This document shows, in pieces, positions 30,976 through 37,188 of a stretch of 40,000 nucleotides of DNA (the stretch's first letter is position 1; each line of letters starts with the position of its first letter). The notes beneath the pieces were generated by a model that saw only the letters and a list, made by a program, of their open reading frames with translations, was not told the origin of the DNA and did no database searches. The position numbers and the translations under genes were made by a program. Origin of the DNA: Methylomonas defluvii (GTDB lineage Bacteria; Pseudomonadota; Gammaproteobacteria; Methylococcales; Methylomonadaceae); NCBI RefSeq assembly GCF_033949435.1, contig NZ_JAXARY010000002.1:257119-297118 (forward strand), in the 5' to 3' direction.

Positions 30976-32072
30976 GCAAACACATCATCGTCGGCATGTC
31001 CGGCGGCGTCGATTCTTCCGTTACCGCTCTAGCCCTGCAAGAACAAGGCCATAAGGTCACCGGCTTGTTCATGAAAAATTGGGAGGAAGACGACGGCACC
31101 GAATATTGCACCGCGATGCAAGACTTGGCCGACGCACAGCAGGTTTGCGACAAACTCGGCATAGAGCTTAAGACCGTCAACTTCGCCTCTGAATATTGGG
31201 ACGAGGTATTTGAAGTGTTTTTGTCGGAGTTTAAGGCCGGCCGCACTCCCAATCCCGACATACTTTGTAACAAACACGTCAAATTCAAAGCGTTTCTGGA
31301 TTACGCCATCGAAGACTTGGGCGCCGAATATATTGCCACCGGCCACTATGCCCGTGTTCGCGAACAAGACGGCGAATTCCAGTTATTAAAAGGCTTGGAT
31401 CCCAACAAAGAGCAAAGCTATTTTCTCTACGCAATGGGGCAGAAAGCCTTGTCTCGTACCCTGTTTCCAATAGGCCACCTGCACAAGCCGGAAATCCGCG
31501 CAATGGCCGACAGAGCCGGCTTTGCCAACAGCCGGAAGAAAGACAGCACCGGCATTTGCTTCATCGGCGAACGCAAATTCAAGGAATTTCTGCAACGCTA
31601 TTTGCCGCACCAACCTGGTGAAATGCGCACCCCGGAAGGGCAATATATCGGCAAGCATCATGGCTTGATGTATTACACGCTGGGCCAGCGCCAAGGTTTA
31701 GGGATTGGCGGCGTCAAGGACGCGCCGGACGAACCTTGGTTCGTGCTGGACAAAGACCTGGACAATAACGTGCTGATTGTCGGCCAGGGCCACAACCACC
31801 CGTTAATGCTGCACAACACCCTGGAAGCCGGCCAACTAGACTGGTGCGGCAGCCAGCCTTTGACTGAAAATATTCGTTGCGCCGCCAAGACCCGCTACCG
31901 CCAAGCCGACCAGGGATGCATAGTCGAACCAATCGACGGCGGCAGCCGCGTCAAAGTCCGCTTCGACGAACAACAACGAGCGATTACGCCGGGGCAGTCG
32001 GTGGTGTTTTATCAGGGCGAGGTTTGTTTGGGCGGGGGGATTATTGAGTGTAAATATAATGAACCGGATTGA
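30972..32072 (+). CDS. mnmA: tRNA 2-thiouridine(34) synthase MnmA
   Basis: It has the PP-loop [11 protein letters not shown], the segment NPDILCN, and full-length colinearity with MnmA. Confidence 0.95.
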
Positions 32073-32316
32073 ATGGCAGCCCAAAGCGGTCAAACAACTG
32101 CGTAAAATTGCCGACAAAAGATTGCGCGAACATGTTTACGATTCGGCTCAGATTTTGAAAGACTTTCCTGAGTGCGCCAATATCAAAAAATTGACCAAAC
32201 ATGAATACAGCTACCGTTTGCGCGTGGGTGCTTATCGGGTATTCTTTGAGTTTGACGGCATCGTCAAGGTTGTTTCCATTGAAGAGGTGAAAAAACGCGA
32301 TGAGCGCACATACTAA
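32059..32316 (+). CDS. RelE/ParE-superfamily toxin (HigB-like gene order)
   Basis: The sequence is [17 protein letters not shown]...[27 protein letters not shown]. The start lies inside the last 14 nt of mnmA. The toxin gene precedes the antitoxin gene. Confidence 0.8.
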
Positions 32317-32629
32317 TATTCAAATTATCAATGGTCTCGACGGCAACCCGGCTTTTGTGGTGATTCCTTATGCCGACTATCTAAAAGAACACTCGGTTGA
32401 CAATGCCACTATTCCTAACGAAGTGGTCGGCGCCGTTATTAAACAAGACATTACGCCCATTAAAGCTTGGCGGGAATATTTGCATTTATCGACAGCCGAG
32501 CTAGCCACACGCTTAGGCGTTTCTGAAGCGGAATATATTGATATAGAAAATCAAGAAAAACCTCATAAACAATTGCTAAAAAAAATGGCAGCCGCGCTAA
32601 ACATTAAGATTGATCAATTAAATTTTTGA
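32300..32629 (+). CDS. HTH (XRE-type) antitoxin
   Basis: It has a C-terminal helix-turn-helix (LSTAELATRLGVSEAEYIDIE) and overlaps the toxin gene by 17 nt. Confidence 0.75.
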   Translation: MSAHTNIQIINGLDGNPAFVVIPYADYLKEHSVDNATIPNEVVGAVIKQDITPIKAWREYLHLSTAELATRLGVSEAEYIDIENQEKPHKQLLKKMAAALNIKIDQLNF

Positions 32630-32693: not shown

Positions 32694-33860
32694 ATGCTAA
32701 CCAATTTACGCATTAAAAATTTCCGCATGTTAGAGGATTTGGAAATTCCAAAGCTTGGCCGCGTAAATTTAATTGTTGGAAAAAACAATAGCGGAAAAAG
32801 CACGATTTTGGAGGCATTAAGAATATATGCAGGAAAAGCCCACCCTGAACTACTGGGAAATATTATAATAGATCATGATGAGTCATTCAAACTAGACCAG
32901 GAAGACAGACCCACCGACACCAACACCCTTTATGGCCTAAAGAATCTATTTCCTGGTAGAGTATTTCCAACAGATGACAATAACTTCATACAGATAGAAT
33001 CAAATTCAAACTTAGTTAAAATTGAATACGTATTTTATTATATGGAAGAATTTGTTACAAAATCTGAAGATGGATTAACCACGGAAACCACACAAAGAAA
33101 AGTAGTCGTAAAAAAATCCAACCTATCCAACAATGACAAAAAATTCCCTGCTATCCCCGCCATCCGAATTGGACGAAACACATTAATTGAATTAAATGTA
33201 GATCCTAAATTATCAAGCCTACATCCTCACTTATTCTGGAATATTGATAACCGTGAAACACTAAAATTCAGCTTAGTTTCAACAAACTTTATAACACCCG
33301 AGAAACTTGCCCAACTTTGGGATAAAATTGCTGCAAGTTCTAGCGAAGAAATTGTTTATCGTGCACTACAAATAGTTGACCCAACCATAGAAAAGCTCGC
33401 TTTTATCAATGGAAATACCGATTCCTCTTTACAAAACGAGAAAAATTTTAGACGAATAGCCATTGTCAAACTCAAAAACTCGGAGATTCGTGCCCCTCTT
33501 AACAGCATGGGAGACGGCATGACCCGTATTTTGCAACTGATACTTTCTGTATTTCCCGCAAAGGATGGAATTTTATTAATTGACGAATTCGAAAACGGCC
33601 TGCACTACAGTGTTCAAGAAGAAGTCTGGCGCATCATTTTCCAATTAGCGAAAGAGCTCAATATTCAAGTCTTTGCAACAACACATAGCTGGGATTGCAT
33701 CGAGAGTTTTACTAAAGCAGCAGTTGAAAGCCCGGAAGAAGGCGTTTTGCTGAAAGTATCCAGAAGCAAACTCACCAGCGATCATGGAAAAGTAATCGCT
33801 ACCGTTTACGATGAGACCGAGTTAGAAACGATAACCGCATCAGAGCTTGAGATTAGATAG
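32694..33860 (+). CDS. ABC/OLD-type AAA ATPase (388 aa)
   Basis: It has Walker A GKNNSGKST (K35), signature-like NSMGDGMTRIL, Walker B/D-loop ILLIDEFENGLH and H-loop ATTHS. The N-terminus LRIKNFRMLEDLEI is typical of AAA_15/AAA_21 conflict-system ATPases. Confidence 0.85.
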   Translation: MLTNLRIKNFRMLEDLEIPKLGRVNLIVGKNNSGKSTILEALRIYAGKAHPELLGNIIIDHDESFKLDQEDRPTDTNTLYGLKNLFPGRVFPTDDNNFIQIESNSNLVKIEYVFYYMEEFVTKSEDGLTTETTQRKVVVKKSNLSNNDKKFPAIPAIRIGRNTLIELNVDPKLSSLHPHLFWNIDNRETLKFSLVSTNFITPEKLAQLWDKIAASSSEEIVYRALQIVDPTIEKLAFINGNTDSSLQNEKNFRRIAIVKLKNSEIRAPLNSMGDGMTRILQLILSVFPAKDGILLIDEFENGLHYSVQEEVWRIIFQLAKELNIQVFATTHSWDCIESFTKAAVESPEEGVLLKVSRSKLTSDHGKVIATVYDETELETITASELEIR

Positions 33861-34552
33861 TGTCTAAAAAGATATTATTGGTCGAAGGCAATAATGACCG
33901 AGCCTTCTTCAGAGCATTCTGTAAAAAACTCGATCTCAAAGATGTCGATGTGCCAGAAATAACCATCGTCACGCCGAAGGATATAGGCGCACAAAGAAAC
34001 GGCTGGACCAACCTTATTGATCATTTACCAACAGAAATTAAGCGATTACGGAATGGTGATATTGATAAATTAGCGATTGTGATAGACGCAGATTTTGAGC
34101 CCGACAACTATGGTGGAGTTACTTCAAGGCGAAGTTTGATTACCAAGAAAATAAACGATTTTTTACAAAAACAAAATTACGGCCTCTACGAAATATCAGA
34201 TCAGCCTAATTACAAAACAGGCGATATTTTCAAGCACACAAACGGCTTACCTGATATTGGCTTATGGATCATGCCCGATCATCAAAATGACGGAATGATT
34301 GAAAATTTTGTCGAGCAAATGATTTCAGCCAGCGCCGAACAACAATCGCTATTAGCTCACGCAAACTTCTCAATAAATAACTTACCGACCAAGCTATTTA
34401 AAGACATTCATTTGTCGAAAGCCAGAATCTATACATGGCGAGCTTGGCAAAAAGAGCCTGGCATAAGATTGCCGGATGCGTTGTCCGAAAACCTATTAAC
34501 TATCGAAGCCGCTGCTAATTTCAGCAACTGGTTAGTCTCGGTTTTTAAATAA
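33860..34552 (+). CDS. Toprim-like partner protein (230 aa; DUF4276/DUF3226/DUF4435-like)
   Basis: Its GTG start shares one nucleotide with the ATPase stop (TAGTG). It has the N-terminal ILLVEGNND (Toprim Glu, E9) and the IVIDAD DxD motif (D76/D78). Confidence 0.7.
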   Translation: MSKKILLVEGNNDRAFFRAFCKKLDLKDVDVPEITIVTPKDIGAQRNGWTNLIDHLPTEIKRLRNGDIDKLAIVIDADFEPDNYGGVTSRRSLITKKINDFLQKQNYGLYEISDQPNYKTGDIFKHTNGLPDIGLWIMPDHQNDGMIENFVEQMISASAEQQSLLAHANFSINNLPTKLFKDIHLSKARIYTWRAWQKEPGIRLPDALSENLLTIEAAANFSNWLVSVFK

Positions 34553-34571
34553 TTATCCAAATATTTTCTAA

Positions 34572-35942
<1,371 letters not shown>

Positions 35943-35955
35943 ACATTAGGACAGG

Positions 35956-37188
35956 TTGTTGCTGAACTTCATCTGGATATTCTTCTTCCTGACCGCCTTC
36001 GCCACCGCCGCCTTCAAGCTGTTGGTGCTGGGCGATACCCAGGTGTTTTCCGAGTTGATGAATGCGATGTTCAGCCTATCCAAGACCGCGTTCGAGATTT
36101 CGTTGGGGCTTAGCGGCGTGCTGGCCTTATGGCTGGGCATCATGAAAATCGGCGAGCATAGCGGTTTCATCGATTTGTTGACCAAGGCGCTGAATCCATT
36201 GTTCACCCGGCTGATGCCGGAAATACCGAAGGATCATCCGGCGCTCGGGGCGATGGTGATGAATATCGCCGCCAACATGTTGGGGCTGGATAACGCCGCA
36301 ACGCCGATGGGCATCAAGGCGATGCAGGAAATGCAGACCTTGAATCCGCATCCCGACAAAGCCAGCGATGCGCAGATTTTGTTTCTGGTGATCAACACCT
36401 CCTCGGTGACGCTGTTTCCGGTGACGATCTTTGCTTACCGAGCCCAGCTCGGCGCCGCCAATCCCACCGATGTGTTCATCCCGATCCTGGTCGCTACCTA
36501 TATGTCGACGCTGACCGGCTTGCTGGCGGTGGCCGCCGTGCAGAAGATCAATTTGCTGGACAAGGTGGTGATGGCTTATCTGGGCGGCATCACCATCTTG
36601 GTCGGCGGCATACTGGCTTATTTCGCCGGCTTGGATCAGGCAGAAATGCTCAAGCAATCGGCTCTGGTCAGCCATGTGATTTTGTTCGGCCTGGTGGTGT
36701 CGTTCATCGCTGCCGCTGCCTGCAAAGGTCTGAACGCCTACGAATTGTTCGTCGAAGGCGCCAAGCACGGTTTCCAGACCGCGATCACCATCATTCCTTA
36801 TCTGGTGGCGATGCTAGTGGCCTTCGGCGTGTTCCGGGCCAGCGGCGCGTTGGAATTGATCACCGATGGCGTGCGACTATTGGTCAATTTTTTCGGTATC
36901 GACAACCGTTTCATCGACGGCCTGCCGACTGCACTGATGAAACCGTTCAGCGGTAGCGGTGCGCGGGCGATGATGATAGACACCATGCAAACTCAAGGCG
37001 CCGATTCCTTCGCGGGAAGGCTGGCATCGGTGGTGCAAGGCAGTACCGAAACGACTTTTTATGTGTTGGCGGTGTATTTCGGTGCGGTCAACATCAAGCA
37101 GATACGTCACGCTGCCGCCTGCGGCATCGTGGCGGACCTCGGCGGGATTATTTCCGCGATTCTGGTGACTTATTGGTTTTTTGGTTAA
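35956..37188 (+). CDS. Nucleoside-recognition (Gate) domain membrane protein, SpmA/SpmB-like fusion
   Basis: It is polytopic, with the segment ANMLGLDNAATPMGIKAM typical of this family. It uses a TTG start. Confidence 0.75.
   Translation: MLLNFIWIFFFLTAFATAAFKLLVLGDTQVFSELMNAMFSLSKTAFEISLGLSGVLALWLGIMKIGEHSGFIDLLTKALNPLFTRLMPEIPKDHPALGAMVMNIAANMLGLDNAATPMGIKAMQEMQTLNPHPDKASDAQILFLVINTSSVTLFPVTIFAYRAQLGAANPTDVFIPILVATYMSTLTGLLAVAAVQKINLLDKVVMAYLGGITILVGGILAYFAGLDQAEMLKQSALVSHVILFGLVVSFIAAAACKGLNAYELFVEGAKHGFQTAITIIPYLVAMLVAFGVFRASGALELITDGVRLLVNFFGIDNRFIDGLPTALMKPFSGSGARAMMIDTMQTQGADSFAGRLASVVQGSTETTFYVLAVYFGAVNIKQIRHAAACGIVADLGGIISAILVTYWFFG

What the first reader, a model, noticed from the sequence alone, without database searches (positions are those of the whole stretch)
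32694..34552. AT-rich, translationally coupled ABC-ATPase + Toprim-like pair (OLD/PARIS-like architecture) between mnmA and purB
The 388-aa protein has all the ABC/OLD-type ATPase motifs:
- Walker A GKNNSGKST
- signature-like NSMGDGMTRIL
- Walker B ILLIDEFENGLH
- H-loop ATTHS

The 230-aa partner starts with GTG sharing a base with the ATPase stop (TAGTG). It carries the two hallmark Toprim elements: ILLVEGNND (catalytic Glu) and IVIDAD (DxD).

Split ATPase plus Toprim pairs are the architecture of PARIS (AriA/AriB), and they mirror the fused OLD and GajA nucleases. This partner is shorter than AriB as I recall it, so its family (DUF4276, DUF3226 or DUF4435-like) is unclear.

The pair is clearly AT-rich relative to mnmA and purB and sits next to a toxin-antitoxin pair, which is a defence-islet context.
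Basis: partly seen in the sequence, partly recalled or inferred. Interest (0 to 1): 0.72.

Follow-up and report, generated by a model that had tools for sequence, protein, structure and literature searches.

The report
ABC ATPase plus DUF3226 Toprim-like pair
This is a real two-gene module, an ABC-type ATPase coupled to a small Toprim-like nuclease, that belongs to a catalogued but untested candidate anti-phage family (PADLOC PDC-M38); it resembles PARIS and AbiL without being a member of either, and its ATPase carries a swappable hypervariable middle segment.

Summary

The partner is Pfam DUF3226. The pair matches PADLOC candidate PDC-M38 A and B full-length, one of 145 untested "guilt-by-embedding" candidates. 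Toprim affinity is supported by sequence and profile evidence, including 92.9% HHalign probability to AriB over the catalytic-Glu segment. It was not confirmed at fold level. It fails the PARIS test (no DUF4435) and the AbiL test (no RloB).

The operon is strict: the ATPase lies directly upstream in 79 of 80 loci across bacteria and archaea. Relatives sit inside BREX and Hma operons, on small plasmids, and between adjacent housekeeping genes.

In Methylomonas the pair is a long-term resident next to purB, not a recent islet. The ParE/HTH pair is a separate, lineage-specific insertion. A ~660-nt cassette inside the ATPase gene is hypervariable (22-55% identity where flanks are 81-97%).

Most likely it is a PARIS-like sensor plus nuclease. 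No function has been tested.

The parts
32694..33860 (+). ABC (SMC/Rad50-head type) ATPase, 388 aa; PADLOC PDC-M38A. Walker A G29-S36 (K35), signature S271/G273/D274, Walker B D297/E298, H-loop H331, invariant C-terminal R388.
   Evidence: AAA_15 5.7e-31, AAA_21 1e-21; PDC-M38A 3.1e-137 full length; AbiLi 3.2e-59; invariant columns; AF2 pLDDT 86.8; Foldseek: SMC/Rad50/PtuA/GajA heads, E about 1e-11; C-terminal Arg in 85 of 86 loci.
32810..33470 (+). Hypervariable cassette inside the ATPase gene (about residues 45-265, between the Walker A helix and the signature motif; largely beta-strand in the model). Candidate sensor or specificity module. Boundaries are approximate.
   Evidence: vs DH-1: about 50% DNA identity here, 73-96% on either side. 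(residues 61-253 are 22-55% identical among alleles whose ATPase ends are 66-98% and flanking genes 81-97%). (vs Kb3: 98% at the gene start, 30-63% across about 32814-33468, then 85-90%).
33856..33862 (+). Gene junction A-TAG-TG: 1-nt stop/start overlap (translational coupling), preceded by the invariant Arg codon.
   Evidence: 65 of 77 related loci have a junction between -4 and +2 nt, and 30 have the same 1-nt overlap.
33860..34552 (+). DUF3226 protein, 230 aa; PADLOC PDC-M38B; Toprim-like putative metal-dependent nuclease. Invariant E9, D13, D76, D78, W136, P139, E148, K187, W193, W196, W224; D140 nearly invariant.
   Evidence: DUF3226 2.5e-48; OLD-like_TOPRIM 4.9e-5; PDC-M38B 6.2e-69; invariants; AF2 pLDDT 94.2: beta1-E, alpha, beta2, alpha, beta3-DxD, alpha, beta-hairpin, helical C-terminal half; AriB as top PDB sequence hits; HHalign 92.9% to the AriB family.
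32059..32316 (+). Adjacent but separate module: ParE/RelE-fold toxin-like gene. The ATG at 32059 overlaps the mnmA 3' end by 14 nt; the ORF listing starts the ORF at TTG 32044.
   Evidence: (ParE_toxin 3e-8). 87.5% identical in DH-1. Absent from M. montana, M. fluvii and Kb3 and from all 80 distant loci.
32300..32629 (+). Adjacent but separate module: HTH_3 (Xre/HigA-like) antitoxin-like gene, overlapping the toxin gene by 17 nt.
   Evidence: HTH_3 1.1e-8; 81% identical in DH-1; no homologue in the 80 loci.

Best explanation
This is a two-gene conflict (most likely anti-phage) module of the ABC-ATPase plus Toprim-nuclease kind. It belongs to the DUF3226 / PADLOC PDC-M38 family.

Proposed mechanism, by analogy with PARIS:
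- The ATPase dimerises or oligomerises through its ABC head and acts as an ATP-dependent sensor.
- Its exchangeable, hypervariable middle segment (residues about 45-265) recognises an infection cue.
- The translationally coupled DUF3226 protein is a metal-dependent Toprim-type nuclease, with acidic residues E9, D13, D76, D78, D140 and E148 plus K187.
- The nuclease is held inactive or licensed by the ATPase. Once triggered it cuts nucleic acid (tRNA or DNA), stopping growth and phage production.

Shown here: domain identities, invariant catalytic-type residues, a strict A-then-B operon with coupled junctions, embedding in BREX and Hma systems, plasmid carriage, and the hypervariable cassette.

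Inferred, not shown: nuclease activity, substrate, A-B binding, the sensing role of the insert, and any phage phenotype.
For: Family assignment: PDC-M38A 3.1e-137 and PDC-M38B 6.2e-69, both full length; DUF3226 2.5e-48.

Full ABC catalytic set invariant in 47 homologues; SMC/Rad50/PtuA/GajA-type head by Foldseek at probability 1.0.

Toprim link: OLD-like_TOPRIM above the curated cut-off; AriB as the two best PDB sequence hits to the family profile, with E9 aligned to AriB E26, the residue whose E26A mutant is non-toxic (PMC11464382); HHalign 92.9%, E 3.6e-7; E and DxD at the ends of beta1 and beta3 in a pLDDT 94 model.

Obligate partnership: ATPase directly upstream in 79 of 80 loci from many bacterial phyla and archaea; junction -4 to +2 nt in 65 of 77.

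Conflict-system signatures:
- Embedded between PglX and PglZ-BrxL of BREX, and between an SNF2-helicase/NOV_C protein and a DUF1156 methylase (Hma-type).
- Most of the cargo of a 6.4-kb mobilizable plasmid.
- GC below the flanks in 98% of 65 loci.
- A cassette-like hypervariable ATPase segment and discrete effector allele classes within one genus.
Against: - No member of DUF3226 or PDC-M38 has been tested. PDCs are explicitly untested candidates, and the related ATPase+Toprim candidate HEC-01 gave no defence in its original assay, although a homologue did protect in another study.
- HHalign covers only 42 columns.
- Many loci, including this one, lie among housekeeping genes with no other defence gene nearby.
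- The ATPase insert is beta-rich, unlike the helical AriA inserts, so the PARIS assembly may not apply.
- Effector alleles assort independently of ATPase-insert alleles, so the insert is unlikely to be the effector-docking surface.
Confidence: 0.6

Rival explanations
1. OLD/Gabija-like constitutive complex. The two proteins form a standing ATP-regulated DNA endonuclease that cuts invading DNA directly. Activity is gated by nucleotide binding or nucleotide pool size rather than by release of a sequestered toxin.
For: PADLOC GajA and Old models hit the ATPase (about 1e-15 to 1e-17) and weakly the Toprim segment of the partner (E 0.016-0.02). GajA is among the structural neighbours. OLD-like_TOPRIM is the only Toprim Pfam hit. 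Repeated placement in nucleotide or PRPP-linked operons (purH|purD, before purB, after guaA, hisG|hisD, trpG|trpD) would fit a nucleotide-linked signal.
Against: The proteins are always separate: all top 150 family representatives are stand-alone proteins of 204-254 aa. No GajB-like helicase partner is present. The best profile matches of the effector are to AriB, a tRNA nuclease, not to OLD or GajA. The metabolic-operon association is not statistically established.
Confidence: 0.2
2. Addiction or toxin-antitoxin module without an immune role. The Toprim protein is a toxin neutralised by the ATPase, and the pair simply stabilises plasmids or the operons in which it is lodged.
For: AAA-ATPase-neutralised TOPRIM_OLD toxins were validated as toxin-antitoxin pairs in toxicity-neutralisation assays (PMC10440598). 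The pair is most of the cargo of small plasmids. It is stably retained between essential housekeeping genes across a genus.
Against: The authors of that study themselves interpret such pairs as abortive-infection systems. Embedding within BREX and Hma operons and a hypervariable ATPase segment are not expected for pure addiction. A full, invariant ATP-hydrolysis site is more than a passive antitoxin needs.
Confidence: 0.1
3. Housekeeping RNA or DNA processing factor linked to the biosynthetic operons that host it, for example a Toprim RNase of the RNase M5 type with an ATPase partner.
For: The pair is co-directional and tightly packed inside conserved operons (28 of 68 loci have both neighbours on the same strand within 200 nt). 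There is no promoter or terminator signal above chance, and only 31 nt separate the effector stop from the purB start. It is conserved next to purB across Methylomonas.
Against: The host operons differ between lineages and have no common function. The pair is AT-rich relative to its flanks in 98% of loci, occurs on plasmids and inside BREX and Hma, and shows allele replacement at 22-55% identity within one genus. None of this fits a housekeeping enzyme.
Confidence: 0.05

Closest known systems
PADLOC PDC-M38 (phage defence candidate, Payne et al. 2024, bioRxiv 10.1101/2024.01.29.577857)
   Same: Both proteins match the PDC-M38A and PDC-M38B models end to end (3.1e-137, 6.2e-69), with the same gene order. 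Relatives found here are embedded in BREX and Hma systems, which is how PDCs were defined.
   Different: Nothing differs in composition; this locus is a member. PDC-M38 is only a computational candidate: untested, with no mechanism, no mention in the searchable literature, and pooled from at least two cassette families.
PARIS (AriA ABC ATPase + AriB DUF4435 Toprim nuclease)
   Same: A two-gene ABC ATPase followed by a separate Toprim-type protein. The PARIS-like pair in L091 has the same 1-nt overlapping junction. The N-terminal Toprim Glu motif is homologous (HHalign 92.9%; E9 aligned to AriB E26). AriA acting as ATP-dependent sensor and AriB as released tRNA nuclease (PMC11464382) is the best mechanistic template.
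   Different: - Effector is DUF3226, not DUF4435: no Pfam DUF4435 hit, and PADLOC AriB only E 0.013.
- 230 aa vs 308-316 aa, and only 42 columns alignable.
- ATPase is 388 aa with a beta-rich insert, vs the 55-kDa AriA with helical IS1/IS2.
- Essentially absent from phages and viral contigs, whereas PARIS is often virus- or satellite-encoded.
AbiL (AbiLi ATPase + AbiLii RloB/Toprim) and RloAB
   Same: The ATPase matches the PADLOC AbiLi model over its full length (3.2e-59). Same two-gene ATPase plus Toprim-like layout, and plasmid-borne in some hosts.
   Different: The partner gives no hit to any AbiLii or RloB model at E up to 1. The AbiL mechanism is itself unknown.
OLD family nucleases and Gabija GajA
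   Same: ABC ATPase and Toprim chemistry. The OLD-like_TOPRIM Pfam hit lies on the Glu motif. GajA, Old and PtuA are sequence and structural neighbours of the ATPase.
   Different: OLD and GajA are single fused polypeptides; here the domains are always on separate proteins. There is no GajB helicase. The Toprim match covers only residues 2-37.
HEC-01 and MADS MAD3-MAD4 (other split ABC ATPase + Toprim-like pairs)
   Same: Same architecture and same embedding behaviour. Weak model hits: HEC-01A 1.3e-15, mad3 1.2e-17, mad4 6e-4.
   Different: These are different families by score, with far weaker hits than PDC-M38. No HEC-01B hit for the partner.

Membership tests
PADLOC PDC-M38 candidate system | Protein A matches a PDC-M38A model | tested here: met
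   PDLC04611 E 3.1e-137, residues 1-388 on 1-383 of 383.
PADLOC PDC-M38 candidate system | Protein B matches a PDC-M38B model and is adjacent to A | tested here: met
   PDLC04623 E 6.2e-69, residues 1-230 on 1-219 of 219. The genes overlap by 1 nt.
PADLOC PDC-M38 candidate system | Anti-phage activity | not testable with these tools
   PDCs are stated to be untested. No paper mentions PDC-M38 or DUF3226.
PARIS (AriA/AriB) | Effector is an AriB, DUF4435 (PF14491) protein | tested here: not met
   No DUF4435 hit at E up to 1 in Pfam. PADLOC AriB E 0.013. HHalign to an AriB family alignment covers only 42 N-terminal columns.
PARIS (AriA/AriB) | AriA-type ATPase (about 55 kDa, helical IS1/IS2 inserts forming a coiled-coil bundle) | tested here: not met
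   388 aa. The insert is modelled as mainly beta-strands (E99-166). The PADLOC AriA hits (1e-30, 9e-27) align with the same coordinates as the generic AAA_15 and AAA_21 Pfam models. No PARIS chain appears among the top 50 Foldseek hits.
PARIS (AriA/AriB) | Catalytic Toprim glutamate (AriB E26) | tested here: met
   E9 aligns with AriB E26 and is invariant in 49 homologues.
PARIS (AriA/AriB) | AriA6:AriB3 complex, trigger-induced release, tRNA-Lys cleavage | not testable with these tools
   Biochemical and structural properties (PMC11464382). No multimer prediction tool was available.
AbiL (AbiLi/AbiLii) | AbiLi-type ATPase | tested here: met
   PADLOC AbiLi PDLC02336 E 3.2e-59, full length.
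AbiL (AbiLi/AbiLii) | AbiLii / RloB (PF13707) partner | tested here: not met
   No RloB or AbiLii hit at E up to 1 in Pfam or PADLOC.
OLD / Gabija GajA | ATPase and Toprim fused in one polypeptide | tested here: not met
   Separate genes here and in 79 of 80 loci. The top 150 DUF3226 representatives are 204-254 aa stand-alone proteins.
Toprim superfamily | Conserved Glu after strand 1 and DxD after strand 3 | tested here: met
   E9 (after strand 4-7) and D76-A-D78 (end of strand 70-76) in the model. E9, D76 and D78 are invariant across 49 homologues. OLD-like_TOPRIM scores 24.2 bits against a cut-off of 23.2.
Toprim superfamily | Fold-level match to a solved Toprim domain | tested here: inconclusive
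Type II toxin-antitoxin (neighbouring pair 32059-32629) | RelE/ParE-fold toxin next to an HTH antitoxin in an overlapping bicistron | tested here: met
   ParE_toxin 3e-8 and HTH_3 1.1e-8, with a 17-nt overlap. Activity not tested.

The most novel reading that the evidence does not exclude
The pair may be a promoterless immune cassette that lodges co-directionally between adjacent genes of conserved operons, both defence operons (BREX, Hma) and biosynthetic ones (purH|purD, hisG|hisD, trpG|trpD, cinA|recA, mnmA|purB), and so borrows their transcription. Its specificity would be re-programmed by recombinational exchange of a ~660-nt sensor cassette inside the ATPase gene, much as target-recognition domains are shuffled in type I R-M hsdS. 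Whole-effector allele swaps would occur independently. DUF3226 would then be a new Toprim nuclease clade with its own substrate.
Probability: 0.25. Interest if true: 0.7.

Novelty: new member of a known kind. Interest (0 to 1): 0.45.

Why it matters
ABC ATPase plus Toprim systems (OLD, Gabija, PARIS, AbiL, retron effectors) are among the commonest bacterial immune modules, yet only PARIS among the split systems has a worked-out mechanism. Reviews state that whether the other split systems work the same way is open.

DUF3226/PDC-M38 is a sizeable branch: about 4,757 clusters at 50% identity, spread across bacteria and archaea. It was not among the partner families used in the published tree of AAA15/21 defence ATPases.

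The Methylomonas alleles offer a natural experiment. The locus and ATPase core are the same, but the middle cassettes differ and there are two effector classes. That could map which part senses and which part kills.

For this window alone the practical value is modest. It correctly annotates two 'hypothetical/AAA family' genes as a candidate defence operon.

Tried and rejected
1. I guessed from neighbour sizes that relatives were embedded in type I R-M operons (hsdM/hsdS). This was wrong: the recurrent neighbours were purH and purD.
2. A purine-specific association was considered. Further neighbours (trpG|trpD, cinA|recA, hisG|hisD, hom) show the pattern is 'between adjacent genes of conserved operons' rather than purine-specific. 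With few independent events it cannot be tested statistically.
3. Co-variation of the ATPase insert with the effector, as a sign of a docking surface, was rejected. Window vs Kb3 has the effector at 95% but the insert at 42%.
4. Recent mobile insertion was considered. There are no flanking direct repeats or att-like sites, and the pair occupies the same site across the genus.
5. The promoter and terminator scan found counts equal to shuffled controls.
7. Single-sequence PDB search with the effector gave no relevant hit.
8. NCBIfam has no model for the effector, and only sub-threshold hits for the ATPase.
9. Literature searches for 'DUF3226' and 'PDC-M38' returned zero papers.
10. The ParE/HTH pair as a third and fourth component of the system was rejected. 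It has no homologue in any of the 80 distant loci and is absent from three Methylomonas genomes.
Full report
**1. The observation.**
The junction reads AGA-TAG-TG, so the stop and start share one base. Every quoted motif is present, and K35, E9 and D76/D78 are numbered correctly.

The pair is AT-rich: GC 0.34-0.42 in sliding windows against 0.50-0.58 in the flanks, and 0.385 against 0.503 for the rest of the window. The window comes from Methylomonas; a 100% identical DUF3226 protein is recorded from Methylomonas sp. OY6.

The flanking genes are mnmA and purB. Upstream lies a ParE/RelE-like toxin gene (ParE_toxin 3e-8) followed by an HTH_3 gene (1e-8). The likely ATG of the toxin gene (32059) overlaps the end of mnmA by 14 nt.

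**2. What the proteins are.**

*ATPase.* It matches AAA_15 (5.7e-31) and AAA_21 (1e-21). In 47 homologues the whole ABC catalytic set is invariant or nearly so: Walker A G29..K35-S36, signature S271/G273/D274, Walker B D297/E298 and H-loop H331. The AlphaFold2 model (pLDDT 86.8) hits SMC, cohesin and Rad50 heads, and the defence ATPases PtuA, GajA and retron Eco8, at E about 1e-11 to 1e-9.

*Partner.* It is Pfam DUF3226 over its full length (2.5e-48). It has a short hit to OLD-like_TOPRIM just above the curated cut-off (24.2 vs 23.2 bits, residues 2-37). All 49 aligned homologues are DUF3226, and 4 of 49 reach OLD-like_TOPRIM on their own.

*Conserved residues of the partner.* Invariant residues are E9, G10, D13, D76, D78, G134, W136, P139, G145, E148, K187, W193, W196, P200 and W224, with D140 nearly invariant. 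The model (pLDDT 94.2, pTM 0.90) has the order strand-Glu, helix, strand, helices, strand-DxD, helix, beta-hairpin, then a helical C-terminal half. That is the Toprim order of elements as I know it from established descriptions of the domain.

*Link to AriB.* The family profile's two best PDB sequence matches are AriB (E 0.0029 and 0.0044). They align LLVEGxxD to AriB residues 23-30 and DAD to AriB D-R-E. I built an AriB/DUF4435 family alignment from a PARIS-like pair on a Pseudoalteromonas plasmid. HHalign against it gave 92.9% probability (E 3.6e-7), but over only 42 columns. E9 therefore corresponds to AriB E26, whose E26A mutant is non-toxic (PMC11464382).

**3. Family assignment.**
In PADLOC the two proteins match PDC-M38A (3.1e-137) and PDC-M38B (6.2e-69) end to end. 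PDCs are 145 untested candidates defined by 'guilt-by-embedding' in BREX, DISARM, type I R-M and Hma loci. PDC-M38 was assigned from two cassette families. Neither 'PDC-M38' nor 'DUF3226' occurs in the searchable literature.

The ATPase also matches the AbiLi model strongly (3.2e-59), but the partner matches no AbiLii or RloB model. AriB scores only 0.013 and DUF4435 not at all. So this is neither PARIS nor AbiL by membership, although it shares their architecture. The published tree of AAA15/21 defence ATPases annotated partners as TOPRIM-Old, DUF4435, RloB or DUF4276, and did not include DUF3226.

**4. Comparative genomics.**

*Spread.* A scan of one genome per species confirmed at least 543 relatives. 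The 80 loci kept span many bacterial phyla plus ANME-2 and Methanosarcinaceae archaea. The profile finds 4,757 clusters at 50% identity; the top 150 are all stand-alone proteins of 204-254 aa.

*Operon structure.* The ATPase gene lies directly upstream on the same strand in 79 of 80 loci; the exception is cut by a contig end. The junction is between -4 and +2 nt in 65 of 77 loci, and 30 have the same 1-nt overlap. The ATPase ends in Arg in 85 of 86 loci.

*Composition.* The pair has lower GC than its flanks in 98% of 65 loci, by 8.5 points on average.

*Mobility.* It is absent from 50,697 phage records and present on 1 of 2.9 million viral contigs. It occurs on 10 plasmids, including a 6.4-kb ColE/MOBQ Citrobacter plasmid where it is most of the non-backbone cargo.

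*Contexts of relatives*:
- Inside BREX, between PglX and PglZ-BrxL, in four gammaproteobacterial loci.
- Next to a DUF1156 methylase in nine loci, three of them with an SNF2-helicase/NOV_C protein on the other side (the Hma arrangement).
- Between genes that are normally adjacent in housekeeping operons: purH|purD (five Betaproteobacteria), hisG|hisD (three Methylobacter), trpG|trpD, cinA|recA, and after guaA.

Of 68 loci with both neighbours called, 42 have both on the same strand as the pair, and 28 of those have both gaps under 200 nt.

**5. The Methylomonas locus.**
In DH-1, M. montana, M. fluvii and sp. Kb3, in two Methylococcales MAGs and on one short metagenomic contig, the pair sits directly upstream of purB. 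mnmA lies upstream wherever the contig reaches that far.

The ParE/HTH pair is present only in the window strain and DH-1 (87.5% and 81% identity). M. montana, M. fluvii, Kb3 and L009 have the ATPase gene 10 nt after mnmA. No ParE/HTH homologue occurs in the 80 distant loci. The TA-like pair is therefore a separate, later insertion, and the ATPase-DUF3226 pair is a long-term resident rather than a recent islet.

No flanking repeats and no promoter or terminator signals above chance were found. Only 31 nt separate the effector stop from the purB start. Co-transcription with the mnmA-purB array is likely, but this is inferred.

**6. Mosaic variation (new here).**
Identity among the eight alleles:

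| Region | Identity |
|---|---|
| mnmA | 87-96% |
| purB | 81-97% |
| ATPase residues 1-60 | 70-98% |
| ATPase residues 254-388 | 66-95% |
| ATPase residues 61-253 | 22-55% in every pair except montana-Kb3 (94%) |

The effector forms discrete allele classes. Window, montana, Kb3, L090 and L089 are 76-95% identical to one another; DH-1 and fluvii are 84% identical to each other; identity between the classes is about 48%.

At DNA level, window vs Kb3 runs 98% at the start of the ATPase gene, 30-63% across about 32814-33468, and 85-90% afterwards. It then reaches 100% for the six consecutive 60-nt windows from 34248 to 34607, spanning the end of the effector gene into purB. Such sharp edges indicate recombinational cassette replacement rather than gradual divergence.

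Insert alleles and effector alleles assort independently: window vs Kb3 has the effector at 95% and the insert at 42%. So the insert is unlikely to be the effector-docking surface. It is a good candidate for the sensing or specificity element, in line with the proposal that remodelled ABC inserts act as phage sensors.

**7. Mechanism.**
The best-supported reading is a PARIS-like sensor-effector pair. An ATP-dependent ABC sensor controls a Toprim-type metal-dependent nuclease, and a trigger leads to nucleic-acid cleavage and growth arrest.

Shown: domains, invariant residues, obligate coupling, defence-system embedding, plasmid carriage, hypervariability. Inferred: everything biochemical.

Rivals are a Gabija/OLD-like standing DNA nuclease complex, a pure addiction module, and a housekeeping nuclease. 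They are weighed in the structured fields.

**8. Verdict.**
The unclear family is resolved as DUF3226 / PDC-M38. The system type is already catalogued as an untested candidate, so the locus is a new member of a known kind. The hypervariable ATPase cassette, the independent effector allele classes and the habit of lodging inside conserved operons are the features worth following up.

Noticed in passing
window 32810-33470 (inside the ATPase gene); compare L001, L086-L090, L009: A ~660-nt segment of the ATPase gene is replaced by unalignable sequence between congeneric strains whose flanking DNA is 80-100% identical. Nearly every strain has its own allele.
   Followed up: yes
window 34248-34607 vs L088 (Methylomonas sp. 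Kb3): Six consecutive 60-nt windows of 100% DNA identity span the 3' end of the DUF3226 gene and the start of purB, while neighbouring stretches are 75-97%. This suggests a recent recombination tract ending inside purB.
   Followed up: partly
window 32059-32629; L001 6259-6790: The ParE/RelE-like plus HTH pair lies between mnmA and the ATPase gene only in the window strain and DH-1. The toxin's likely ATG (32059) overlaps the last 14 nt of mnmA. The DH-1 gene call is 13 codons shorter (72 aa).
   Followed up: partly
L006-L008, L010, L032 (purH|purD); L026, L027, L036 (hisG|hisD); L029 (trpG|trpD); L015 (cinA|recA); L071 (after guaA): The pair repeatedly sits co-directionally between genes that are normally adjacent in conserved biosynthetic or repair operons. 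Many of these use PRPP or nucleotides. Whether this reflects an insertion preference, borrowed transcription or a metabolic link is unexplained.
   Followed up: partly
window 33855-33857 (codon for R388) and 85 of 86 related loci: The ATPase almost always ends in an arginine immediately before the stop codon that overlaps or abuts the effector start. This is either a functional C-terminal residue or a constraint of the coupling site.
   Followed up: partly
L059 6662-8514 and L078 6668-8496 (Latescibacterota): A second AAA_21/AAA_15 ATPase (about 410 aa) followed by a ~200-aa ORF lies immediately downstream of the pair, giving two ATPase-plus-small-protein modules in tandem.
   Followed up: no
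L092 (Citrobacter plasmid NZ_CP055541.1) 2429-3010: A 193-aa gene annotated 'tRNA modification GTPase' lies co-directionally just upstream of the ATPase-DUF3226 pair on a 6.4-kb mobilizable plasmid. It could be a third component there.
   Followed up: no
L011 1368-2891 (Candidatus Marithrix MAG): A single-subunit, phage-type DNA-dependent RNA polymerase gene (Pfam RNA_pol 2e-51) lies next to the pair on the opposite strand, and an adenylate/guanylate cyclase gene lies downstream.
   Followed up: no
L001 10445-12172 vs window 35942-35956: DH-1 has a malic-enzyme gene between purB and the 'Gate'-domain transporter gene. It is absent from the window, where the two genes are 13 nt apart.
   Followed up: no
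L091 1574-3888 (Pseudoalteromonas plasmid NZ_CP045419.1): A PARIS-like AAA ATPase (460 aa) plus DUF4435 (310 aa) pair with a 1-nt overlapping junction. A 55%-identical DUF4435 protein is recorded from Methylomonas lenta (P0280), so true PARIS-type effectors also occur in this genus.
   Followed up: no
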